Shown here: piece after piece, positions 5,521-60,792 of the stretch
Layout of the letters: each line of letters begins with the position of its first letter
How positions within the stretch are numbered: position 1 is the first letter of the stretch
NCBI GenBank assembly: GCA_050331735.1
Contig: JBHJGN010000001.1
Coordinates: forward strand, 64,001-128,000
DNA length: 64,000 nucleotides
Direction: 5' to 3'
DNA from: Cyanophyceae cyanobacterium
Lineage (GTDB): Bacteria; Cyanobacteriota; Cyanobacteriia; Cyanobacteriales; JBHJGN01
Notes under the pieces: generated by a model
The model's database searches: none
Told to the model about the DNA's origin: nothing
Seen by the model: only the letters and a program-made list of their open reading frames with translations
Made by a program: the position numbers and the translations under genes

Positions 5521-6203
5521 GAATAAGCTAAAGATAACGTTTCTCTAGAAATTTGTCTCGCAACCAGACTTGAAACCACCAAGGCTTTCAAAGCTTACCA
5601 TTTAGTTCGTTTCACTATCAAACTAACTCTTCTGAAAACTTTAAGCAATGTGTTATTACTTACTTAGCTAAAGCTGATAGTTGATGAGCAAGATGCGATT
5701 AGTATACAGAATTCTCACTAACGGTAGAGAGAGAAAAACATTCCTATATGAGATGCTACCTTTATAGCAACAGCAGTTTATAAAACGTAGCAATTCAAGA
5801 GATTAGCCCTGCTTTAGAGTTTAATCCCACAGCTTGTCGACTGGTGGATACGGCCCTCCAACTTCCGAGAAAGGTAGCCGTGTTTTCTGTCCTCAAATCT
5901 TCCACGAAGAGTTGTCGATTGTTACCGTAGCATTGTCAACCCTAAGTTTTGTAGTTAGAGAAACAAATGAACCCGATAAATTTGGTAGTCTTGTTCGCGA
6001 GACTCATCCTAGGCTAGCTAGCGGGCAGAGCCACGCCTTCAGGCCACACTTTCCTCAGCGGGCTTGGCTATGGTGGCGTTATGGCAGCGAAAACCCGACC
6101 GATTGACCAGCAGACACAGTATTTATTTTAGTTATCGCAGTTATGTAGAAGCTGAGTAGAAATATCCGAAGTCAATTTATTTAATAGTAAAAATAGAACG
6201 CAT

Positions 6204-7839: not shown

Positions 7840-8013
7840 ATCAAGACGGAGCAACGCTCGCTCCGATTTTTCTGATTAAACGCTACACAAGTTAAACCTC
7901 GGCCAAGGGTTAAAGGAAAAGACAAATCAACTGTCCTTTTCCCTTTCCCCCTTCCCCTTGACCCCATTCAACCATTGGTAGCTCTCTCAAGCTGATGCCA
8001 AGACAAATGCCAG

Positions 8014-8793
8014 CTACTTGAAGCGAGTGAGCTGAACGCGGTAGCGCTGCTTTTTGGTGATGGCGACTTCTCCTACCTCGACTCGTCCTTTCCCGCGTAC
8101 CGAGATCAGGTCTCCTGGGCGAACGGTGTGGCTTGGCTGAGTCACTTCTTTCCAGTTGACCCGTACATCTCCTGTGCTAATGGCATCCGCCATCTTACTG
8201 CGGGACATGCCTAAGCCAGCCGAGGCGATCGCATCGAGGCGCAGCGACGCTTCCACCGTGGTCATCGCTTTTTGCTGAGGCGGACGAATCTTCAACTCGC
8301 TCAGTTCGATGCGCCGGGTTTTCACAGGGACAGAGCGGACCTGCACCAGCGCCGTTTCTAAAAACTCTACTAGTTCTGGCACCACAATCACCTGAGCCCC
8401 TCGTTCGCCGAGCACGTTAATATCGCCGATTTTCTCGCGAACGACTCCCGTTCCCAAAATCGCGCCCAAGAAATCTCGATGAGTAGCAGAATCGAACAGA
8501 AAATTTCCGGCAATATCAAGAGCCGCTAATTCGATCGAAGACTGCTCTAGAGGCACTTCAGAACGAGAAATACCGATGCGTTGACGTTCGGCTTGCGGAT
8601 AGCCCCCCCAGGCCAGAATCTCTACTTCCGTCAGCCGACTGAAGGCTTGCTGAACATCGACAATGACCGCCGGAGAAACAAAATCGGTGGCAACCACTTC
8701 CCACGTTCTGAGCGCTTGCTCGGCTTTGTCTACAACCCGAACTACCGCTTCTCGCTCGGCAACTCCTTTGAGTAATTCTTCTCTTGGCAGCAT
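8014..8793 (-). CDS. S4-domain RNA-binding protein (YlmH/Sll1252 family)
   Basis: HRDFLGAILGTG motif and a C-terminal S4 domain (SLRLDAIAS...GDLISVRGKGR). Confidence 0.9.
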   Translation of the reverse strand: MLPREELLKGVAEREAVVRVVDKAEQALRTWEVVATDFVSPAVIVDVQQAFSRLTEVEILAWGGYPQAERQRIGISRSEVPLEQSSIELAALDIAGNFLFDSATHRDFLGAILGTGVVREKIGDINVLGERGAQVIVVPELVEFLETALVQVRSVPVKTRRIELSELKIRPPQQKAMTTVEASLRLDAIASAGLGMSRSKMADAISTGDVRVNWKEVTQPSHTVRPGDLISVRGKGRVEVGEVAITKKQRYRVQLTRFK

Positions 8794-50513: not shown

Positions 50514-51092
50514 ATGACTACAACCAGTCGGCAGTTCACCTTAGCGGAATATCTAACCTATAGTGACAGCACAGAGGGACATTACGAGTTGGTTAATGGA
50601 GAACTCATAGAAATGCCGCCTGAGTGGGACTTTAACAACCAAATTGCCTCCTATCTATTTGCAGAATTGTTGAAGGTTGTTTCAAGTCGTCTCATTCGCT
50701 GCAAGGGAATCGAAATCGTTGTGGGGGGAGTGCGAGCAACGACGAGAGTGCCAGACTTAATGGTATTGAGTGAAGAATTACGACTAGCATTACGACAATC
50801 ACGGCGGGGAACAATTACGTTGGATATGTTGCCCCCGGTACTAGTGGTGGAGGTAGTCTTGCCGGGAAAAGAAAATGAAGATCGGGACTATCGCTACAAG
50901 CGTTCAGAATATGCAGCACGAGGAATTGCTGAATATTGGATTGTCGATCCAGAACGCGGTCAGGTAGTAGTGTTGACGCTGGTGGATGGGTTGTATGAGG
51001 AGGCCATTTATCAAGGAAATGAACACTTGGTTTCCAAGTCTTTTCCAACTTTAAAGCTAACCTCAGAGCAAGTTCTTCGAGGAGGAGAATGA
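50514..51092 (+). CDS. Uma2 family protein
   Basis: YELVNGEL, RVPDLMV, VEVV, KRSEYAARGIAEYWIVDP. Confidence 0.92.
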   Translation: MTTTSRQFTLAEYLTYSDSTEGHYELVNGELIEMPPEWDFNNQIASYLFAELLKVVSSRLIRCKGIEIVVGGVRATTRVPDLMVLSEELRLALRQSRRGTITLDMLPPVLVVEVVLPGKENEDRDYRYKRSEYAARGIAEYWIVDPERGQVVVLTLVDGLYEEAIYQGNEHLVSKSFPTLKLTSEQVLRGGE

Positions 51093-51133
51093 CCGATGAA
51101 AAAGGGCAAGAGGGCTGAAGAGTCCTCGCGCCA

Positions 51134-52006
51134 CTACACAGAACTACACAGTACTCGAAAACCGAAATCGTTGTAGCGGTTGTTCGGACTGCCGCTGTAG
51201 CGAAACGCGGAACGGCAGTATTTTGGAGCTTCGTACCACGCACCACCGCGCAACGGACTATTAGCGCTTTCATCATCAGATGACCAAGGTTTATTGCCGT
51301 TCTTCTTTAGTTCCTCTGGTTTTTCTTCATAGCTATCATGCCAGTGATCTAAACACCACTCCCAAACATTCCCGTGCATGTCGTATAGACCAAATCTATT
51401 CGCTACTTTGAAATAGCCCGCTTCGGTTGTTTCTTCTCTATCGATTCCTCGCGGTCCTCGACCGTAGTTTCCTAAATAAGTCTCGCTGTCTGTTTTAAGG
51501 TCTGTACCTCTGTAGTTTGCTAGATCGGTTGTAATTGTTTCTCCAAAGTGAAATGGCGTTGTCGTTCCCGCACGGCAGGCATATTCCCATTCGGCTTCGG
51601 TCGGCAATCGATATTCTCTTTCTGTGTGGCGAGAGAGGCGATCGCAAAACTCGACCGCTTGATACCAACTAACCTGTTCTACAGGGCGGTTGTCTCCCTT
51701 AAATTCTGACGGATCTGGCTCCAGCTTTCGCTTAACTTGAGGGAAAGAAGCTACAGTTCGCCACTGGGCCTGAGTAACAGGATGCATTCCTAAACAAAAA
51801 TCGCTCAGGCTAACTTCATGCTGTGGCTCTTCAGAAGATTCATGTCCAATTTCGGTTGCAGGAGAACTCATCTGAAAGCTTCCTCCAGGGATCTCGACCA
51901 TTTTCAGCAGAATCCCGTTGCCTAAATCTTCAGCGTAGTAACGTCCAGAGCGATTCTGATAGCGAAGGTTGACGCGATATTTTACTTCACCTTGGGAGAC
52001 AGTCAT
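51134..52006 (-). CDS. FGE-sulfatase/CLec-fold protein with DGR-type variable C-terminus
   Basis: [51 protein letters not shown]...GFRV. Confidence 0.92.
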
Positions 52007-52019
52007 AGTTAGCTTTCTG

Positions 52020-52136
52020 ACCTCTGATTATTCGTTCTCCGAGGATGAATTTGTGGTCTCTGGGGAGACGGTTGAGGATGGGAACGTACCACTGAATGAG
52101 ATCGTAGGTTTTCTGAATAATGGGTAGCTCTTCCAT
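52020..52136 (-). pseudogene. avd: Truncated DGR accessory variability determinant (Avd), N-terminal ~39 aa only
   Basis: [39 protein letters not shown] resembles the N-terminus of cyanobacterial Avd. The frame continues for 10 unrelated residues to a stop at 51987, overlapping the next gene. Confidence 0.82.
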
Positions 52137-52229
52137 GCAGAATTTGAAAAATAAGCGATCGTGCTGCACACGAGATCGTTAAGGAAAAATGGTAAAGGGT
52201 AGAGGGCAAAAGGTCAAGAGAGCAAAGGG

Positions 52230-54920
52230 CTAAAGAGTCCTCGCGCCAAAACACACAACACGAAAACCGACAACGTAGAAGCGGGCGTCCGGATCGTTGT
52301 TGCGGCGAATCGCAGAACGGCAGAGCTCTGGAAGGTTGTACCACGAACCACCGCGCAACGTCCTTAAAGCGCTTTCATCGTCAGTTAACCAAGGTTTATT
52401 GCCATTTTGCTTGAGTCCCTCCGGTTTTTCTTGATAGCTATTGTGCCAATGGTCTAAACACCATTCCCACACATTTCCGTGCATGTCATATAAGCCAAAA
52501 GCGTTAGCCGGATATTCTCCGACTGAACTTGTTTCGTTTTCCTTGCTTTCAGAATAGTTCACTAGCTCTGGCGTAACTGTGTCCCCGAAATAATAGGATG
52601 TTGTTGTCCCCGCACGGCAAGCATATTCCCACTCGGCTTCAGTGGGCAAGCGATATTCTCTGTTGGTATGGCGAGAGAGGCGATCGCAAAACTCAACCGC
52701 GTCGTACCAGCTCACGTTCTCGACTGGGCGGTTGTCGCTCTTAAAATCTGATGGATCTGTCTCCAGCGCTCGATTGACTTCGGGTAAAGAGGCAACGACT
52801 TGCCACTGCGCCTGAGTAATTGGATATTTACTGATGAAGAAATCAGAAACCGTTACCTCATGTTGCGGTTCTTCATCGCGATAGTGACCCGCTTCATCTT
52901 TGGGAGATCCCATCAAAAAGCTTTCTCCCAAAACCGCCACCATCTCTAGCTGAATCTCATCGCTAATCCGCTCTATCCGCTGCCAGCCGAAGCCAGAAGA
53001 CTTTGTAATTAGCCATTCTTGTTCGCGTCCAAACGAAAACCACGACCTCGGCTTTGGCTCAATCTTGGCTGTTTCAAACTCGAACCGTTGCAGAGCTTCT
53101 AGCTCAACTTCTTCAACCACAAACTCATGAGGCAACCATTGCGGCCATTCCTCTGGGATAAGTTGCGCTGTCTCGAACTCCAGAATTTTTAGCGTCGGGA
53201 ATCCGGGGAACTGGGTTTCTTCCCACGAACCCATCCGAAATTCTCGCGCGAGTTCTCTGTACTCGCCTCCAAGACGTTCAAGAATACTTGCCGTTACGCT
53301 TGCAAACGACTTTAAACTCCCGTCTTCCGACTCGTTTTGCTCAGGGGACAATAAAACCGACTTAAACTGCTGCAACGAGGCATAGCCTAACCGCTGTGCT
53401 ATATATAACGACACGGCATTGATAATTTCAATGGCATCCACCGGGGGCAGCATCTTTAATAGAGCTTCCCGTACCCCACGAACAAAATCGTATTGCACCA
53501 ACTCTGGATCGATATCGCCAGCTTGGTCGGGTAACCGATGAAGCAGTCCGCTCAAAAAAACTTCTGCCACTGGCAAAGGCGACATTTTTGACATCATTGA
53601 GGCCCGGATTAAGCGCATGACTGGCAGAGTAATGACCGGAGCGGCGGCCAGCAGAGTGATTAACTGCCGTGCCTGTGGCGATGACAGCATCCGAAACTGC
53701 TGAATGCGATCGCGGGATAACTTGGCTAGCTCTTCTCCCAGCCACTGCTCGCGTTCAGCCTCGGTTAACTCTCCCGGCGGACGTTCCCGAAAGCGCTTGT
53801 TTACCTCGTCCTCAGACGACGGTGCTTGTGGGACACTCCCTCCCTGCTGGGGCAATAAAAATCCCGCCGTCACCTCTTGACCATCACCGGAGAGCACTTT
53901 GCTCCAGGCGGCCACGTCTTCGGTGGCTGAAGTAAACACCGGAACGGGGATGCCGCGAACCTCCTCTTCCTCTACAAAAAGGTCGAGTCCGATCGCTTCA
54001 GCTTCCAGTTGAGAGTTGACAGCACCGGAGAGGGAATTACGCAGAGCAACATAAGTACCGCGCCCCAGGGCCGTTCGCTCCCACATCCATTCCGGCAGCA
54101 CCTGCCAGATCGCCGTTGGCATTGCGCCTGCCCACAGCTTCAAAACCGCTAACATCCTGTCATCCCACCAGTAATCAGCGACGCAATCGCTTAGAATAAT
54201 CACGATGCGCCGACCGTTAGGAGAAACCAGTTCTCGGGCCGTATGCGGGGGGCGATCTGGATGCGATCGCAATACAATTGCCCCAGCCTCGGTTTCGAGT
54301 TCCCAGCGTCGAAGGTCGCGAAAGGCTCCGTAATGCTTTAAGAGTTGTTGGAGATCGTCGGCTAAGCGCTTCCACAAATTCATCGAGGAGCTGCGATCGA
54401 CGATGAGGGCGATCTCAAACCACGGTTCGAGGTTTGGTTGAAGCACTGGCGACCAAACCCTAGTTTCCACGATGCGATCGACCGTTTCCGCCTCATCAAT
54501 CTGCTCTCCTAACCCCGTTGGAACTTGCTTGAGAAGCGGTCGCAGCGCCCGAATTAAATCCATTGGGTTGTCCAGCAGCGGCGGATCGGCAACCCACAGA
54601 GGAAGCGCTTTTTGAGGAAGGGGCTTAGCCGTCGGACGTGGAGGAGGTGGAATTATGGGAATCTGTGGATCTGGTGGCTCATTATCTTTTCCATTGACTT
54701 TGCTATCGCGAGGTGGAGCAGGTGGAGGTGGAGGTGGTGGAGGGCCTGGATCAGGTAGAGGTGAAGGGTCTGGATCAGGTAGAGAAGTTTCTTCCGGCTG
54801 TTTTTCCTCCTGTTTGTCTCTTGGCTGAATGCGCGTTGTCAACCACAGGACTTCTGCAATATTAGTTGCATCGAGCTGCTCGTCTTTGGCTAAGGCAGCA
54901 ATCAGCCGTTCGACATTCAT
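52230..54920 (-). CDS. vWA (SAV_2336-like N-domain) + FGE-sulfatase/CLec fusion; DGR target
   Basis: IAEVLWL N-terminus, Pro-rich linker, MIDAS DRSSS and ILSDC, LPEWMWERTAL; C-terminal [15 protein letters not shown]...RGGSW...GFRVVC. Confidence 0.88.
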   Translation of the reverse strand: MNVERLIAALAKDEQLDATNIAEVLWLTTRIQPRDKQEEKQPEETSLPDPDPSPLPDPGPPPPPPPPAPPRDSKVNGKDNEPPDPQIPIIPPPPRPTAKPLPQKALPLWVADPPLLDNPMDLIRALRPLLKQVPTGLGEQIDEAETVDRIVETRVWSPVLQPNLEPWFEIALIVDRSSSMNLWKRLADDLQQLLKHYGAFRDLRRWELETEAGAIVLRSHPDRPPHTARELVSPNGRRIVIILSDCVADYWWDDRMLAVLKLWAGAMPTAIWQVLPEWMWERTALGRGTYVALRNSLSGAVNSQLEAEAIGLDLFVEEEEVRGIPVPVFTSATEDVAAWSKVLSGDGQEVTAGFLLPQQGGSVPQAPSSEDEVNKRFRERPPGELTEAEREQWLGEELAKLSRDRIQQFRMLSSPQARQLITLLAAAPVITLPVMRLIRASMMSKMSPLPVAEVFLSGLLHRLPDQAGDIDPELVQYDFVRGVREALLKMLPPVDAIEIINAVSLYIAQRLGYASLQQFKSVLLSPEQNESEDGSLKSFASVTASILERLGGEYRELAREFRMGSWEETQFPGFPTLKILEFETAQLIPEEWPQWLPHEFVVEEVELEALQRFEFETAKIEPKPRSWFSFGREQEWLITKSSGFGWQRIERISDEIQLEMVAVLGESFLMGSPKDEAGHYRDEEPQHEVTVSDFFISKYPITQAQWQVVASLPEVNRALETDPSDFKSDNRPVENVSWYDAVEFCDRLSRHTNREYRLPTEAEWEYACRAGTTTSYYFGDTVTPELVNYSESKENETSSVGEYPANAFGLYDMHGNVWEWCLDHWHNSYQEKPEGLKQNGNKPWLTDDESALRTLRGGSWYNLPELCRSAIRRNNDPDARFYVVGFRVVCFGARTL

Positions 54921-56080
54921 TAGTCGGCCTCACTTAAGCGCTTAAACAGAAGCTGTCTGAGCTTCTCCATCTCCATTTCGCTAGGACCAGGATCGCGAGT
55001 AATCAGGTAAACGGCATTGAGCAACTGGTCAGTGGCGCGATCGGCTTTATTGCCTCCTTCGAGAAACTTTTTAATGAGTGGTTCGAGCTGCGGTTTCAGC
55101 GTTTTCCAGTTATCTTCGCCAAAACGGGACTCGATAATCGGATAGAGCGATTCGAGGGTTGGATCGGGCATTCTGACTCGCAGACAGCGCCGCCGAAACG
55201 CCGGAGGAAAGTCGCGTTCGCCATTACTGGTCATCACCACGAAGGGGAACTCGCAGCACTCGATGCGTCCTTCTGTAATGGTCGCGCTTAAATCTTTATC
55301 TTCGGTTAAAACAGTAACCTGCCTCTCAATTCTTTTGCGTCGTACCAGTTCAGGAATCTCAAACTGACCTTCCTCAAACAGATTGAGCAGATCGTTCGGA
55401 AGATTGAGATCGCTTTTATCGATTTCGTCAATGAGAAGAACTCGCGGTCGCCGGGAGGAAAGGAAAGCGGTTCCGACTGGTCCGAGTTGGATATAGTCCC
55501 CCAAGCTGCGTTCCTCTCGACTCGGTTTCTCTTGACTCTCTAATTGGACAATTGCCTCGCTGTCGGTTTGGTCGAGCTGACTGCCTCGCTGTCGAGCCAT
55601 CAGTTCTAAAACTTGGGAGGTCGTTGTCTCGCTGCGGGTTTGATCGAGCTGAGCATCTTGCAGCCGCGCGATCGCATCATAGCGATAAAGGGCATCTTTA
55701 AGGGTCGCTCGCGCCGTTACGGGCCAGACTAAAACTGGACCGAGTTGAAGTTCGTAGGCGACTGCATAGGCTAAAGACGTTTTTCCCGAACCGGGAACTC
55801 CCGTGATCAGCAAGGGACGGCGTAGATGCAAAGCTGCATTAACAGCATCAACAATTTCTGAATCACCATTTTTATCTTTCTGAATGCGAAAACTCTTTCC
55901 CCTCTCAATAGCACGGTTTTCTTCCTTCGCTCTTTCATGCAGCTTGTCCCAGCGTTTGTTGTCTTTCTTCTCATCGACTTGTTCGCGGGGAAGAAACTCT
56001 CGCCAGGGAGGGCGATCGGGAATTTCTACGAGTGGATTGGGGGTGTCGCCGCAGTTGCCGTGAAAGTGTTTCCAAGTCAT
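54920..56080 (-). CDS. MoxR-family AAA+ ATPase
   Basis: LRRPLLITGVPGSGKTS, LLIDEIDK, TSNGERDFPPAFRRRC. Its stop overlaps the vWA start (TAATG). Confidence 0.92.
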   Translation of the reverse strand: MTWKHFHGNCGDTPNPLVEIPDRPPWREFLPREQVDEKKDNKRWDKLHERAKEENRAIERGKSFRIQKDKNGDSEIVDAVNAALHLRRPLLITGVPGSGKTSLAYAVAYELQLGPVLVWPVTARATLKDALYRYDAIARLQDAQLDQTRSETTTSQVLELMARQRGSQLDQTDSEAIVQLESQEKPSREERSLGDYIQLGPVGTAFLSSRRPRVLLIDEIDKSDLNLPNDLLNLFEEGQFEIPELVRRKRIERQVTVLTEDKDLSATITEGRIECCEFPFVVMTSNGERDFPPAFRRRCLRVRMPDPTLESLYPIIESRFGEDNWKTLKPQLEPLIKKFLEGGNKADRATDQLLNAVYLITRDPGPSEMEMEKLRQLLFKRLSEAD

Positions 56081-56101
56081 AGGAGCTATAGAGGTAAATA
56101 A

Positions 56102-57574
56102 TCAAGGAGCAACGCGATCCGGTGAGTAGAGGGGACGTTCGTTAGTAGGAATCGTTGGCAAGCGATCGGGGTTGTCGCAAAGAATTCCTAGAGTCTGAAT
56201 AGGATTAGCTGATGTTGCTAGTCTTTTTTCCTGAATTGACTGAGCCAGTTGTGCAACTTCTCTGAGGTTGTCTGCGATGAGAAGAGAATCGAACGCCTCA
56301 CAAATCTCGTCTCGATCGAAGTCCGCACAGTGCGTCCACAAAACAATCGGCATCTGGGAGAGGATTAATTGCTTCAAGGCTTCCTTGCGAGCAACAGAAT
56401 CATCCGGTAAACCCGAAATTACTTTTGCTCCTACCTTTCCAGAAATCAACTGCCCTGCAAAGGTATCTTGGCTACTAGAAAAATCAACTTCAATAAACTC
56501 CTGGCAGACTGAATTAGCTGTCAGGCACTTTTGCAGACGTTGCCAACCTTCTCTTACTTTCAGAAGCAGAAGTGGATGAGTAGCTCGTTCAAGCGAACGA
56601 ACCAGTAATCTATAGCGATCGCCTAGCTTAGAGATTTCTTGCAACTCATCTAAAGCTTCCCATTCAAAGACTTGTTCTTCTAGAAGATCCCTGGGGAGAA
56701 AAATTTCCAGAACAGCCTGATGGGAGATTTCTTTTTCGAGCAATATCGATGCAGCTTGGTCTAGCCACGAATACAAAGGATTTGCCAATAGCTTGTCTAC
56801 GTCCACCAGCTTACCGTTTGGGAGTTCGCAGGAAAATCCTCTCATTCCGTCAGAATCGCTATCGAGGGGGTGTGGTTGTCCTGCCAAGTGCAGCTCGGCA
56901 AATAACTGTACTGACTTGGCTTTACGCACAAGGGCAACTAAGACATAACCGTGGAGGGAAGTTAGCTTTGGGGGAACGGTGATGTTATGCTTCCTAACAA
57001 GATTGTCTCGCCAACTTCTCAGCTCATCAAAATTTCTTTGAGTTTGCTTGGTGATAATTTCGATGGCACTATCTATAAAGGCAACGGTCAGTTCAGGGCT
57101 GTCGTACTTACTAAAAATTTGGCGAAAACTCTTCAAGTCATTGAGGGATGGATGATCTCGGAAAACCTCCCTTAGCGATCGCTGGTAATGAGAGAGAAAT
57201 GCAGCTTTGCACGCGACTTCTAGCGCGGCGCGATCACCTGGTTGAAATTGATTTAATACCCAATCCCACTCCTGCTGCGAAATTTTTTGTGTTGGCGCAG
57301 CGACTATGGAGCCATCCCTCAGCTCGGCTATTTTAGGGTCGTCAGGATGACTGACAGAGACCTTCAAGAATAGTTCGTCAAGGCGATTTTCTCGTTTTGC
57401 CCATTTGATCAGATCGAATGCTTTATCTCCTAAATCCCCTGATTCAGGAGCAATGGTATTTAGCTCCTCCACATTCATCAGATCGCTTAATCTCTCCAAC
57501 TTTTTTGATGTAGGGTAGCAATTAATTATTGCCTGACGAAATTTTTCTCTTCTTTCCCCATTCCACTTCCTCAT
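56102..57574 (-). CDS. EAD1 + vWA-MoxR associated protein (VMAP-C-like)
   Basis: N-terminal helical domain (AIINCYP...AFDLIKWAKRENRLDEL); C-terminal EIFLPRDLL..W...LG..Y.LLVRSLER, PIVLW, LCDNPDRLP. Confidence 0.75.
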   Translation of the reverse strand: MRKWNGERREKFRQAIINCYPTSKKLERLSDLMNVEELNTIAPESGDLGDKAFDLIKWAKRENRLDELFLKVSVSHPDDPKIAELRDGSIVAAPTQKISQQEWDWVLNQFQPGDRAALEVACKAAFLSHYQRSLREVFRDHPSLNDLKSFRQIFSKYDSPELTVAFIDSAIEIITKQTQRNFDELRSWRDNLVRKHNITVPPKLTSLHGYVLVALVRKAKSVQLFAELHLAGQPHPLDSDSDGMRGFSCELPNGKLVDVDKLLANPLYSWLDQAASILLEKEISHQAVLEIFLPRDLLEEQVFEWEALDELQEISKLGDRYRLLVRSLERATHPLLLLKVREGWQRLQKCLTANSVCQEFIEVDFSSSQDTFAGQLISGKVGAKVISGLPDDSVARKEALKQLILSQMPIVLWTHCADFDRDEICEAFDSLLIADNLREVAQLAQSIQEKRLATSANPIQTLGILCDNPDRLPTIPTNERPLYSPDRVAP

Positions 57575-57581
57575 AAGCTAG

Positions 57582-57995
57582 CTATCGTTCTAATGGTGGT
57601 AACAATGGAATTGCACTGGCGTAAATGAGCAGTAAAAATGACCCGTAAAACGGCTGATAAAAATCTAGCGTCTCAAATGGTCCGCCGATGGCAAATACCC
57701 AAACGGCAAACGACGCACAAGATAGCCAAATTTGCTGCCAAGCCGTTGGTTTACCCGATTCCGCCGTCTGTTTTCGCGTCCAGAAATAGGAAAATACGAG
57801 TCCAGCTCCAAACAGCATCCAGAGGAACAAAGGTTTTGGGATATCGTTTCCCTGGCTTTGAATTAAGCCGTTGCCTGCCAGCCACAGCCCGACTACATCG
57901 GCAGGAATATACTTAAGGAGACGGTCGAAATAACCATCAATACTTTTATTTTCTCCTCCTGACTGGTACTGCTGCCAGACGATACGACGGCTCAT
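57582..57995 (-). CDS. Small integral membrane protein (~4 TM), unknown function
   Basis: ATG at 57995 preceded by GAGGAG; DRLLKYIPADVVGLW, WVFAIGGPF and four hydrophobic segments. Confidence 0.8.
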   Translation of the reverse strand: MSRRIVWQQYQSGGENKSIDGYFDRLLKYIPADVVGLWLAGNGLIQSQGNDIPKPLFLWMLFGAGLVFSYFWTRKQTAESGKPTAWQQIWLSCASFAVWVFAIGGPFETLDFYQPFYGSFLLLIYASAIPLLPPLER

Positions 57996-58002
57996 CTTCT
58001 CC

Positions 58003-59061
58003 TCACTGCAAAAATGGTGCGATTTCTTGGTAGATCGATTGAAATAAAATGCCCTCGCGGATGCTCCCAAAACCCCGCGACATCGATAGGTGATGCAGCG
58101 CTATCAACTGCCAGCGCTCGTTAAAGCAGGGCGAACCGCTCGATCCTTTCTTTGTCCGGTTCACGTACCAGATGCGATCGCGTTCTAGAGCGAAACCGAC
58201 GACTCCGCTATCGCTGAGGGAAACCTGCATCAGCTCTCCTTCGGGATGCTGAAGAACATATAAACCTTTTTTAGGTTCTGGTAAGGTAGCAGTAGAAACA
58301 TAAACGAGAGGTTTAATGTGGTTTGCTTCAGCGATCGCTGCTTCAGCCCGCAATAAGACGTAATCGAGACTTGATATTGGGCTAAAGGCAACGACGGGCT
58401 TTTCCACTGCTACCGCATAGACCTCCGGGCGCACGGGAGTTTCGCGTTCTTCACTAACGTAACCAAACTCAAAACAGAGCGATCGCGCTAGGTGGTTGAG
58501 GCGTTTGGAATCTACTGTTTCCTCTGTCAGAACGTGATAATTGGTCAGAATTAAATCGGCAGCAACCAGGACTCCGGTTCCGGTGCGATCGCTATCGGTA
58601 AAAACTACTTTGCAAATTGAATCAGCACACTGCAAACCTCGCTTAAGCTGACCAACATCTGTCTCAAAAGAAAGCGCTCGCGCTGGGAAGAAGGCTTCGA
58701 GTTCAGTATCGGTCGTCGGACCTTGCCAGTCGAATGGTCGGCTAATGACTTCTGTGATCCCTTCTCCGTTGAGAACGAGATGCTCTTGCAATAAGTCCTG
58801 AACTCGCTGATAAAACTGACGAACATCTGGATTGTTAGACTTTTGCTGATAGAGAGAGACAATCAGCTCAACTAACTTGTTTTCCCTCCTCGCCCAATCG
58901 ACAAGATCGAACGCAGCATCGGTCGTATCGCTCTCACTGGCAATTTCATTGAGATCGACATCCAAACTATCAGCAAAAATTTGGATCTTTTTGCGGGAGG
59001 CAAAAGCTTTCGTAATCGCATTGCGGAGCTGATTGCGATCGCTACCCGATAACTTCAACAT
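58003..59061 (-). CDS. EAD1 + trypsin-like serine protease
   Basis: N-terminal LSGSDRNQLRNAI...AAFDLVDWARRENKL; catalytic triad motifs LTNYHV, LDYVLL, GSSGSP; QHP and ALHH; GGAGG RBS. Confidence 0.88.
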   Translation of the reverse strand: MLKLSGSDRNQLRNAITKAFASRKKIQIFADSLDVDLNEIASESDTTDAAFDLVDWARRENKLVELIVSLYQQKSNNPDVRQFYQRVQDLLQEHLVLNGEGITEVISRPFDWQGPTTDTELEAFFPARALSFETDVGQLKRGLQCADSICKVVFTDSDRTGTGVLVAADLILTNYHVLTEETVDSKRLNHLARSLCFEFGYVSEERETPVRPEVYAVAVEKPVVAFSPISSLDYVLLRAEAAIAEANHIKPLVYVSTATLPEPKKGLYVLQHPEGELMQVSLSDSGVVGFALERDRIWYVNRTKKGSSGSPCFNERWQLIALHHLSMSRGFGSIREGILFQSIYQEIAPFLQ

Positions 59062-59324
59062 CAGCGACCTCCAAAACAGGATTTTAGGATGTTGAACCGC
59101 CGCTCGTTCTCTGCGACCCGTTTACTCAAAGCATCTGCTGGCTGCAACTGTTATGGAAAAGAATATCATTCATGGGTGAGAAGTCAAATAAGAATGCCTT
59201 TTAGTGCAATTAATTGCGGTCAAAGGAAAATTTAGATCTGCTCGGTCATGTTTATGTCTGCATCCGAAAACCCCTCAAAACGGGGTAGCTTTAAAGCATT
59301 ACTGACCTTGAATGATTCACCACA

Positions 59325-60143
59325 ATGACAAAACTAATTATCCGACGGCAGCAAGGAAAAGCCCGGTACTACACTGAGGATCTAGGGGGTGGAGTCGGAC
59401 TAGACATGATTCTTATCCCTAGCGGTAGTTTCTTGATGGGAACGGAAGATCGAGAAATCGACAGACTTTGTGAAACTTACAGCAGTGAGCATTTTAGAAC
59501 TGAAGGACCACAACATCGAGTAACCCTCCCCACTTTCTTTTTTATAGGACGTTATCCCATTACTCAAGCACAGTGGCGAGCCGTCGCTTCTTTACCTTTA
59601 ATCAATCGGAAGCTAGAGCCAGATCCATCAATATTTGAGGGAGACAATCGTCCAGTCGAGAACGTGAGCTGGTACGAAGCGGTAGAGTTTTGCGATCGCC
59701 TCTCTCGCCACACCGGAAGGGAATATCGGTTGCCCACCGAAGCTGAGTGGGAATATGTTTGCCGTGCAGGGACAACAACACCCTATTATTTCGGGGACAC
59801 AATCACGTCAGAGTTGGCAAACTATGAAAGAAATCGAGAAGAGACAAGTCCAGTCGAAGAATACCCAGCCAACGCTTTTGGCATTTCTGATATGCACGGG
59901 AATGTGTGGGAGTGGTGTCTAGACCACTGGCACGATAGCTATAAAGACACACTAGAGGAATTAAAGCAAAATGGCAATAAACGGCTGACTGGTAAGAAAA
60001 GCGCTAATAGAACGTTGCGCGGCGGTTCATGGTCCTACACTCCAGAGGCCTGCCGTTCTGCGTTTCGCAACTACGACTATCCGGACCTCCGCAACGACAT
60101 TATCGGTTTTCGAGTTGTGTGTAGTGGCGCGAGGACTCTTTAG
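59325..60143 (+). CDS. FGE-sulfatase/CLec-fold protein with DGR-type variable C-terminus
   Basis: [31 protein letters not shown]...CRSA...GFRVVCSGARTL. Confidence 0.92.
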   Translation: MTKLIIRRQQGKARYYTEDLGGGVGLDMILIPSGSFLMGTEDREIDRLCETYSSEHFRTEGPQHRVTLPTFFFIGRYPITQAQWRAVASLPLINRKLEPDPSIFEGDNRPVENVSWYEAVEFCDRLSRHTGREYRLPTEAEWEYVCRAGTTTPYYFGDTITSELANYERNREETSPVEEYPANAFGISDMHGNVWEWCLDHWHDSYKDTLEELKQNGNKRLTGKKSANRTLRGGSWSYTPEACRSAFRNYDYPDLRNDIIGFRVVCSGARTL

Positions 60144-60282
60144 CCCTTTCCCCTCTTGTTCTTTTGCCCTTTTCCCTTCTTTGGTTCAGTCCCAGATTTA
60201 ACAAAGCTGGCAATTCTAACTTTCAGCATTCCGGCAATTCACGCAGTCTAAAAATTAAGCTCACCGTTTATGATCGTCAATT

Positions 60283-60792
60283 ATGCAGGGGCAATTCACC
60301 GTGAAGACTCGTTCAGCCACCCAAGTACTCTTCGAGACCGATTATTACCAATGGACGCAAGGAACTGTTAAGCATCTCCAGAACCGGGATGTTGAAAACC
60401 TAGATTGGGAACATTTAATCGAGGAAGTCGAGCTATTGGGCATTAGCGCTAAGAATACCGTTAAAGGTTCTCTAGAAGTGCTACTCGTGCATCTTCTGTA
60501 TTACCAATACTGGTATAACCGCCGGGAATACTTAACCGAAGGATGGGCGGATGAAATCGAAGAATTTCGCTCCCAATTTGAAAAGAGCCTTGCATCTCGG
60601 AGCCTCTATAATTACATGCTAACGATTCTCGACCAAACCTACGCCAAAGCAAAGCGGAGAGCAGTGAGAAGGTTTGTCAGGGCTAAGCTCATACCTCCCC
60701 AGTTTCCCGACCAATGCCCCTACAGCATCGCGCAACTATTCGATGAAAACTACTTTCCAGAGTTTAAGTCAGAGCTAGAATCAAGCGACTGA
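60283..60792 (+). CDS. DUF29 family protein
   Basis: LFETDYYQW, LDWEHLIEEVE, LLVHLL, FPDQCPY. Confidence 0.9.
   Translation: MQGQFTVKTRSATQVLFETDYYQWTQGTVKHLQNRDVENLDWEHLIEEVELLGISAKNTVKGSLEVLLVHLLYYQYWYNRREYLTEGWADEIEEFRSQFEKSLASRSLYNYMLTILDQTYAKAKRRAVRRFVRAKLIPPQFPDQCPYSIAQLFDENYFPEFKSELESSD

What the first reader, a model, noticed from the sequence alone, without database searches (positions are those of the whole stretch)
60015..60143. Three variable regions show the DGR adenine-mutagenesis signature, allowing the missing template repeat to be predicted
Seen, codons after the conserved TGG. VR1 (~52230-52360): TAC AAC CTT CCA GAG CTC TGC CGT TCT GCG ATT CGC CGC AAC AAC GAT CCG GAC GCC CGC TTC TAC GTT GTC GGT. 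VR2 (~51118-51260): TAC GAA GCT CCA AAA TAC TGC CGT TCC GCG TTT CGC TAC AGC GGC AGT CCG AAC AAC CGC TAC AAC GAT TTC GGT. VR3 (this interval): TCC TAC ACT CCA GAG GCC TGC CGT TCT GCG TTT CGC AAC TAC GAC TAT CCG GAC CTC CGC AAC GAC ATT ATC GGT. Codon positions 1-2 vary widely while position 3 (C or T) is almost fixed, the reverse of normal drift. Known: this is what A-to-N mutagenesis of AAC/AAT codons produces. Inferred TR, approximately: TGG AAC AAC AAT CCA GAG AAC TGC CGT TCT GCG AAT CGC AAC AAC AAC AAT CCG GAC AAC CGC AAC AAC AAT ATC GGT TTT CG. VR2 deviates at a few non-A positions and may be older.
Basis: partly seen in the sequence, partly recalled or inferred. Interest (0 to 1): 0.85.

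Follow-up and report, generated by a model that had tools for sequence, protein, structure and literature searches.

The report
Frozen retroelement-written tips, rewriting machinery deleted
Three lectin-like sensor genes keep binding tips once rewritten by a mutagenic reverse-transcriptase system (DGR), but that system was deleted here, so the tips are frozen; this is ordinary decay of a known system.

Summary
Three FGE-sulfatase/C-type-lectin-fold genes (59325-60143 +, 52230-54920 -, 51134-52006 -) end in an 83-base stretch. There, 15/28 first, 10/28 second and 3/27 third codon positions vary. In the rest of the domain the third position varies most, 143/222.

The DGR reading is supported from outside the window. 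Four same-order relatives carry the syntenic cassette: MoxR ATPase, long FGE target, bAvd, RT, TR, short FGE target. Of the 28 variable columns here, 24 lie where at least one relative's TR has an adenine (Fisher p 2.6e-10).

The DGR is dead in this genome. Only a 39-codon avd stub remains (52020-52136 -), butted against the short target gene. The only RT in the 99-contig bin is an RT-Cas1 fusion, and no TR or TR-downstream RNA element was found. A contig from an independent assembly of one run bridges the scar with no differences.

So these are fossil variable regions of a cyanobacterial-type DGR that served a VMAP/MoxR conflict-system locus, a kind already in print (PMC10907252, PMC7517822). 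The predicted TR is plausible but cannot be verified. Earlier notes of this scan report fossil DGRs on other DNA.

The parts
59325..60143 (+). Short FGE-sulfatase/CLec-fold target gene (272 aa) carrying VR3
   Evidence: PF03781 E 1.6e-52; ORF listed
60015..60143 (+). VR3. TR-homologous stretch from TTGCGCGG. Variable core is 60030-60112. IMH-like GGCGCGAGGACTCTTTAG ends at the stop codon (60141-60143).
60144..60190 (+). Polypyrimidine tract downstream of the VR. It is conserved in VRs of relatives and absent from their TRs, and no hairpin is predicted. It may be a target-recognition element (inferred).
52230..54920 (-). Long target gene (896 aa). The N-terminal 647 aa have no Pfam domain; the C-terminal FGE-sulfatase domain carries VR1.
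   Evidence: PF03781 E 1.6e-55; N-terminal part has no family at E up to 1
52261..52358 (-). VR1 scaffold of 98 bases; the variable core is 52261-52343
52020..52136 (-). avd (bAvd) stub: the first 39 codons of an accessory gene of about 115 codons. The open frame 51987-52136 gives 49 aa.
   Evidence: tblastn with 4 relatives' Avd: 76-82% identity over residues 1-39; PF22296 positions 3-34 of 107, below the family cut-off
52007..52022 (-). Deletion scar. Avd homology ends and the upstream edge of the short target gene begins. The rest of avd, the RT, the TR and its RNA element (about 1.7 kb in relative G006) are missing.
   Evidence: the junction is bridged by contig record 3 of run X1 (51631-52248, 0 differences)
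51134..52006 (-). Short FGE-sulfatase target gene (290 aa) carrying VR2
   Evidence: PF03781 E 4.2e-49
51156..51253 (-). VR2 scaffold; the core is 51156-51238. Between the core and the IMH-like stretch lies a 10-base insertion that shifts the frame, so the gene stops early at 51134.
54920..56080 (-). MoxR-like AAA ATPase (386 aa)
   Evidence: AAA_5 E 9.8e-9; syntenic with the relatives' AAA gene
56102..57574 (-). EAD1 + VMAP-C protein (490 aa)
   Evidence: PF20028 E 5e-21 and PF19955 E 3.4e-10
58003..59061 (-). EAD1 + trypsin-like peptidase (352 aa), the likely effector
   Evidence: PF13365 E 2.5e-16 and PF19955 E 1.6e-11

Best explanation
The interval is the variable region (VR3) of one of three C-type-lectin-fold (FGE-sulfatase) genes in a VMAP/MoxR-type conflict-system locus. 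All three tips were once rewritten by a diversity-generating retroelement (DGR). In a DGR, a template repeat (TR) is transcribed and then copied by a DGR reverse transcriptase with Avd, which misreads adenines. The cDNA replaces the VR up to a 3' recognition stretch called the IMH. In this genome a deletion of roughly 1.7 kb removed avd from codon 40 onward, the RT, the TR and its downstream RNA element. These lay between the long and the short target genes. The three tips are therefore frozen variants and now change only by ordinary mutation; VR2 already carries a 10-base insertion and point changes at fixed positions. Shown here: the codon-position pattern, the agreement with TR adenine columns of relatives, the synteny, the avd stub, and the absence of an RT or TR from the assembly. 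Inferred: that the lost TR had AAC/AAT at the variable columns, that the proteins act as ligand sensors of the conflict system, and that loss was by a single deletion.
For: Three FGE-sulfatase genes. Codon-position reversal: core 15/28, 10/28, 3-4 of 27-28 against upstream 81, 61, 143 of 222 (p 4.9e-7 for position 3). Of 28 variable columns, 24 coincide with an adenine in at least one of 4 relatives' TRs, while 47 of 55 invariant columns have none (p 2.6e-10). Relatives G006, G011, G027 and G015 have AAA, long FGE, bAvd (PF22296, E 1e-18 to 1e-22), RT (PF00078, E 1e-20 to 1e-24), TR and short FGE in the same order. In the alignment each TR departs from its two VRs mostly where the TR has A (read by eye, not counted). 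There are exceptions, among them the G-to-C/T change in the IMH-like stretch. Avd stub of 39 codons, 76-82% identical to relatives. PF00078 gives 1 match in the genome, and it is an RT-Cas1 fusion. tblastn with 4 DGR RTs hits only that gene. blastn, nhmmer and a fuzzy scaffold search find only the 3 VRs plus FGE paralogues. A profile of TR plus its downstream RNA element matches only the VR part; the best match to the RNA part has E 0.29. The junction and all three VRs are covered by contigs of run X1 with 0 differences, at depth 45-54 against 48 on the 7.3-kb contig that spans most of the locus.
Against: The genome is a 99-contig bin from a metagenome, so an RT/TR contig could have been left unbinned or unassembled. 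Contigs drop rare variants, so cannot exclude low-level VR diversity. The relatives belong to other families of the same order, and no genome of the same genus or family was available, so the lost TR is inferred and not seen. The four TRs are homologous to each other, so the Fisher test overstates independence. Four of the 28 variable columns have no adenine in any relative's TR.
Confidence: 0.85

Rival explanations
1. The DGR is alive. An RT, Avd and TR sit on an unbinned or unassembled contig of the same organism and rewrite the three VRs in trans. The stub at 52020-52136 would then be a degenerate second locus, as described for Thiohalocapsa PB-PSB1.
For: VR1 and VR3 keep an intact IMH-like stretch and the conserved downstream tract. 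PMC10907252 (passages read) describes degenerate loci alongside complete ones in a single genome. The genome is a metagenome bin.
Against: The bin is scored 99.98% complete and has no DGR RT, no full Avd, no TR and no TR RNA element. VR2 carries a 10-base insertion inside the stretch that homing would overwrite. Contigs of run X1 pass through all three VRs without differences (weak evidence).
Confidence: 0.08
2. The missing cassette is an assembly artefact: a collapse or mis-join removed avd-RT-TR from the contig.
For: VR and TR repeats often break or confuse short-read assemblies. Logan's contigs break inside the conserved FGE domain.
Against: The junction lies in unique sequence, between avd codon 39 and the start of the short target gene, not in a repeat. 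A second assembler's 618-base contig spans 51631-52248 with 0 differences at depth 54. No RT-bearing contig exists in the bin.
Confidence: 0.03
3. No retroelement was ever involved. The pattern would come from ordinary paralogue divergence with diversifying selection on the binding site and codon bias.
For: C-type-lectin binding sites can be under positive selection. Only three copies are compared.
Against: This does not explain near-identity of third positions and of the non-coding 3' flank while the rest of the genes differ at 64% of third positions. It does not explain the coincidence with TR adenine columns of relatives, nor the avd stub in the syntenic place.
Confidence: 0.02

Closest known systems
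Cyanobacterial DGRs of RT clade 5E that diversify putative sensors of VMAP/MoxR ternary conflict systems (Dore et al. 2024, PMC10907252; outline with abstract, section 13 and search passages read)
   Same: C-terminal CLec/FGE variable regions. [quoted passage not shown] Neighbouring MoxR ATPase, VMAP, adapter (EAD) and trypsin-like peptidase genes.
   Different: This genome has no RT and no TR, and its avd is cut to 39 codons. No vWA domain was detected in the long target.
Degenerate or remnant DGR loci: 'degenerate' loci of Thiohalocapsa PB-PSB1 (PMC10907252, passage), and the all3226 paralogue with remnant TR-VR homology and no nearby RT in a model-organism genome discussed by Vallota-Eastman et al. 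2020 (PMC7517822, passages)
   Same: Target genes with a VR signature whose diversification machinery is missing. Vallota-Eastman et al. already suggest that the components may be removed once a variant is selected.
   Different: In PB-PSB1 each class keeps one complete locus. Here none was found in the whole bin, and the deletion scar (the avd stub) is preserved in the syntenic position.
   Same: Adenine-specific TR-to-VR information flow, a VR at the C-terminus of a CLec-fold protein, and a 3' IMH that differs between VR and TR (in the relatives, GAGGACTC in the VR against GAG[C/T]ACTC in the TR).
   Different: A cellular locus with three targets. No hairpin is predicted after the VR; a conserved polypyrimidine tract lies there instead.

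Membership tests
Diversity-generating retroelement (complete, active) | DGR-clade reverse transcriptase | tested here: not met
   PF00078 gives 1 match in the genome, an RT-Cas1 fusion. tblastn with 4 relatives' DGR RTs hits only that gene, at 28-30% identity.
Diversity-generating retroelement (complete, active) | Template repeat paired with the VR, mismatches at TR adenines | tested here: not met
   No fourth copy was found by blastn, nhmmer or a fuzzy scaffold search allowing up to 12 substitutions. Scans of public collections with two patterns found 0 matches.
Diversity-generating retroelement (complete, active) | Accessory protein Avd | tested here: not met
   Only residues 1-39 remain. 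PF05635 gives no match.
DGR target / variable region (fossil) | VR at the C-terminus of a CLec/FGE-sulfatase-fold protein | tested here: met
   PF03781 in all three genes, reaching the C-terminus.
DGR target / variable region (fossil) | Variation confined to sites that are adenines in the template | tested here: met
   Tested indirectly: 24 of 28 variable columns match adenine columns of the relatives' TRs. The genome's own TR is not available.
DGR target / variable region (fossil) | IMH-like 3' boundary shared with VRs of live cassettes | tested here: met
   GCGAGGACTCTT followed by the conserved tract in VR1 and VR3, as in the relatives' VRs. Their TRs change the G and then diverge.
VMAP ternary conflict system (Kaur et al. 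2020, PMC7159879; seen only in the search listing and as summarised in PMC10907252) | MoxR-like AAA ATPase | tested here: met
   AAA_5 E 9.8e-9. The syntenic gene in G006 also touches bpMoxR, at E 3.3e-4 and below the family cut-off.
VMAP ternary conflict system (Kaur et al. 2020, PMC7159879; seen only in the search listing and as summarised in PMC10907252) | VMAP protein | tested here: met
   PF20028 VMAP-C E 5e-21 together with EAD1.
VMAP ternary conflict system (Kaur et al. 2020, PMC7159879; seen only in the search listing and as summarised in PMC10907252) | vWA domain protein | tested here: not met
   No Pfam family at E up to 1 in the 647-aa N-terminal part of the long target, nor in that of G006.

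The most novel reading that the evidence does not exclude
Loss of the DGR core may be a recurrent, possibly selected, end state in this order of bacteria. Under this reading the retroelement diversifies immune-sensor tips for a time and is then excised, leaving frozen sensor sets. This genome has two RT-less three-target VMAP/MoxR loci, the one in the window and an older one on contig C37. In addition, 9 of 19 relatives with VR-like 3' ends had no DGR RT at E up to 1e-30.
Probability: 0.25. Interest if true: 0.45.

Novelty: new member of a known kind. Interest (0 to 1): 0.3.

Why it matters
This is a clean, datable example of how a targeted-hypermutation system ends. The scar (a 39-codon avd stub) sits exactly where live relatives carry avd, RT and TR. 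Three frozen sensor tips remain, two of them still with intact recognition sequences. That gives a natural 'off' state to compare with live cyanobacterial DGRs attached to VMAP/MoxR conflict systems. It also shows that a lost template can be inferred from its targets. It does not change what is known about DGRs: degenerate loci and removal of the diversification components are already discussed in print (PMC10907252, PMC7517822).

Tried and rejected
Four scans of public collections found nothing. They used an IMH-spanning pattern and a 62-letter VR scaffold with N at the variable sites, each against genome contigs and metagenome contigs. So no living TR with the same scaffold could be used to test the predicted TR.

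PF05635 (23S_rRNA_IVP) gave no match in the genome. PF22296 was the better Avd model.

PADLOC gave only weak AAA-type hits and no system call for 7 locus proteins.

Folding the VR 3' flanks as DNA gave no hairpin (z 0.3 to 2.1 in 4 of 4 sequences), so a BPP-1-like cruciform was rejected.

Runs X2 and X3 of the same study hold only fragments under 95% alike that lie on conserved FGE-domain parts. I read these as coming from other organisms; they say nothing about this strain.

Contig record 2 of X1 (depth 9) carries a VR1-like end with 22 differences in 142 bases. I read it as an FGE gene of another, rarer organism and could not inspect its letters.

One look-up of earlier notes failed because it had too many words. 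It was repeated with fewer words.

Full report
**Observation.** The window holds three genes with a C-terminal FGE-sulfatase (C-type-lectin-fold) domain:
- 59325-60143 (+), 272 aa, carrying VR3
- 52230-54920 (-), 896 aa, carrying VR1
- 51134-52006 (-), 290 aa, carrying VR2

In the 83 columns from the conserved TGG to GGTTTTCG, 28 columns differ among the three copies. They are 15 of 28 first, 10 of 28 second and 3 of 27 third codon positions. A protein-guided codon alignment gives 15/28, 10/28 and 4/28.

In the 222 aligned codons upstream, the same genes differ at 81, 61 and 143 of 222 positions. They are only 64-66% identical as proteins there. The third position, normally the fastest to change, is therefore nearly fixed in the core (4/28 against 143/222, p 4.9e-7). 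The excess at positions 1 and 2 is modest taken alone (p 0.07).

In VR1 and VR3 the conservation continues through the stop codon into about 45 bases of non-coding DNA.

**What it is.** A DNA search of 40 same-order relatives found VR-like matches in 19 of them. No genome of the same family or genus was available. In several relatives the matches come in threes within about 3 kb.

I fetched four such places, in G006, G011, G027 and G015. In each, the gene order is:
1. trypsin/VMAP or a related gene
2. AAA ATPase
3. an FGE protein of 550-967 aa
4. a bAvd protein of 112-116 aa (PF22296, E 6e-18 to 1e-22)
5. a reverse transcriptase of 352-370 aa (PF00078, E 3e-20 to 6e-24)
6. a non-coding copy of the repeat
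7. an FGE protein of 269-290 aa

This order is shown. In the alignment the non-coding copy is a classic template repeat. It carries AAC/AAT codons where the two flanking VRs differ from it and from each other. It agrees with them at most other positions (read by eye from the alignment, not counted). It diverges from them just after the IMH-like stretch, GAGGACTC in VRs against GAG[C/T]ACTC in TRs.

Of the 28 columns that vary among this window's three VRs, 24 lie where at least one of the four foreign TRs has an adenine. Of the 55 invariant columns, 47 have none (Fisher p 2.6e-10). With adenine required in at least 2 of the 4 TRs the split is 22/6 against 6/49, p 1.1e-9. The four TRs are homologous to each other, so the p-value overstates independence, but the agreement is plain. 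The DGR origin of the pattern is therefore well supported.

**The machinery is gone.** In this window the long target gene ends at 52230 and the short one starts at 52006. Live relatives have avd, RT, TR and a conserved RNA element in that gap, about 1.7 kb in G006.

What remains here is a 49-codon open frame (51987-52136, -). Its first 39 residues are 76-82% identical to the N-termini of the four relatives' Avd proteins. After that the similarity stops, 13 bases before the ATG of the short target gene.

Across the whole 5.57-Mb, 99-contig assembly (completeness figure 99.98%) the searches gave:
- PF00078 finds one gene, and it is an RT-Cas1 fusion.
- tblastn with four DGR RTs finds only that gene, at 28-30% identity.
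- PF22296 finds only the stub, and PF05635 finds nothing.
- blastn and nhmmer with the VRs find the three VRs plus the 3' ends of other FGE paralogues on C37, C62 and C11.
- A fuzzy search with the 67 fixed scaffold positions, allowing up to 12 substitutions, finds only the three VRs.
- A profile of the relatives' TR plus its strongly conserved downstream RNA element matches this genome only over the VR part. The best match to the RNA part has E 0.29.

**Is the deletion real?** The genome comes from a stromatolite metagenome, so it is a bin and an unbinned RT contig cannot be excluded. Logan's separate assembly of the one run that holds the stretch gives a 618-base contig (depth 54) covering 51631-52248 with no differences. 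That contig bridges the scar. Other contigs cover VR2 (50922-51382), VR1 (52226-52518) and VR3 (53083-60300) with no differences, at depths of 45-52.

Contigs drop rare variants, so this is only weak evidence against ongoing diversification. It does argue against an assembly artefact. VR2 has a 10-base insertion between the variable core and the IMH-like stretch, which shifts the frame and creates an earlier stop. VR2 also differs at positions that are fixed in VR1 and VR3. Any further homing would have overwritten these changes, so VR2 at least has not been rewritten since they arose.

**How it most likely worked, and works now.**
- Known for DGRs in general: the TR transcript is reverse-transcribed by RT with Avd, adenines are misread, and the cDNA replaces the VR up to the IMH.
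- Shown here: three targets that share one scaffold and hence, by inference, shared one TR. Two of them flank the former cassette. The third (the finding's interval) lies 7 kb away on the other strand, at the far side of the MoxR ATPase (54920-56080), EAD1-VMAP (56102-57574) and EAD1-trypsin (58003-59061) genes.
- Inferred from Dore et al. 2024 (PMC10907252, section 13 read): the variable CLec tips are ligand or antigen sensors that feed a MoxR/VMAP conflict system with a peptidase effector.
- No vWA domain was detected in the long target, so full membership of the ternary system is not shown.

Today the tips are frozen alleles. Whether freezing was selected or is mere decay cannot be told from these data.

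**The predicted template.**
- TGG AAC AAC AAT CC, as in G006 and G027
- CGC AAC AAC AAC AAT, as in G015
- CGC AAC AAC AAT ATC GGT TTT CG, as in G015

Three copies do not settle several columns:
- The codon after GCG has T at position 2 in all three VRs, while the relatives' TRs have A there.
- GAG, GAG and AAA are compatible with more than one template codon.
- GAC, GAC and AAC likewise.
- One third position reads T, T and C.

Four scans of public collections with two scaffold patterns found no living TR of this scaffold. The prediction remains plausible and untested.

**Comparison with what is known.** This is the cyanobacterial-type DGR associated with MoxR/VMAP conflict systems described by Dore et al. 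2024 and Vallota-Eastman et al. 2020. Both papers already mention degenerate loci or remnant TR-VR homology without an RT. The second suggests removal of the diversification components once a variant is selected (passages).

I did not test it. Earlier notes of this scan report several fossil DGRs on other DNA.

**Verdict.** The element is dead in this assembly. It is a new member of a known kind, of modest interest.

Noticed in passing
Own genome contig C37, about 53.9-62.4 kb (locus L002 6025-14438): A second, paralogous locus. It has three FGE-sulfatase genes (280, 316 and 908 aa) with Trypco1, trypsin-VMAP and an AAA ATPase, and is followed by two cytochrome P450 genes. It has no avd or RT. 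Its VR-like 3' ends and IMH-like stretch are more decayed than those in the window, so it looks like an older RT-less locus.
   Followed up: partly
window 60144-60190 (+) and 52185-52229 (-); L035 about 8000-8070 (-): A polypyrimidine tract directly after the VR stop codon (TAGCCCTTT..CTCTTG..CTTTTGCCCT) is conserved among VRs of this genome and of G006, G027 and G015. It is absent from the TRs and no hairpin is predicted. It may be the target-recognition element of this DGR clade.
   Followed up: partly
Relatives G005, G014, G021, G025, G028, G031, G032, G033, G036: These 9 of the 19 relatives with VR-like DNA matches showed no DGR RT orthologue at E up to 1e-30. G029 has an RT with three internal stops and no VR-like match. 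Most are draft assemblies, and some of the matches lie at contig ends.
   Followed up: no
L037 (G027:C1) about 5780-5980: In G027 the 3' half of the TR has no AAC run and is identical to both of its VRs. Only the 5' half of that VR is being diversified.
   Followed up: no
L035-L038, about 150 bases downstream of each TR: A strongly conserved non-coding element follows the TR in all four relatives. It includes GGGAAT, GAGTCCAGAC and CATCCGAAAA. It is presumably the structured part of the DGR RNA and has no match in this genome.
   Followed up: partly
Own genome contig C26, 2-1657 (-) (locus L001): An RT-Cas1 fusion gene, running off the contig end, is the only reverse transcriptase in the assembly.
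   Followed up: partly
window 50514-51092 (+) and 60283-60792 (+): Uma2-family (PF05685) and DUF29 (PF01724) genes flank the locus. A Uma2 gene also flanks the paralogous locus on C37.
   Followed up: no
window 51634-51944: Run X1 holds a second contig (314 bases, depth 27) that is 86% alike over the 5' part of the short target gene. This suggests a related strain or species in the same sample.
   Followed up: no
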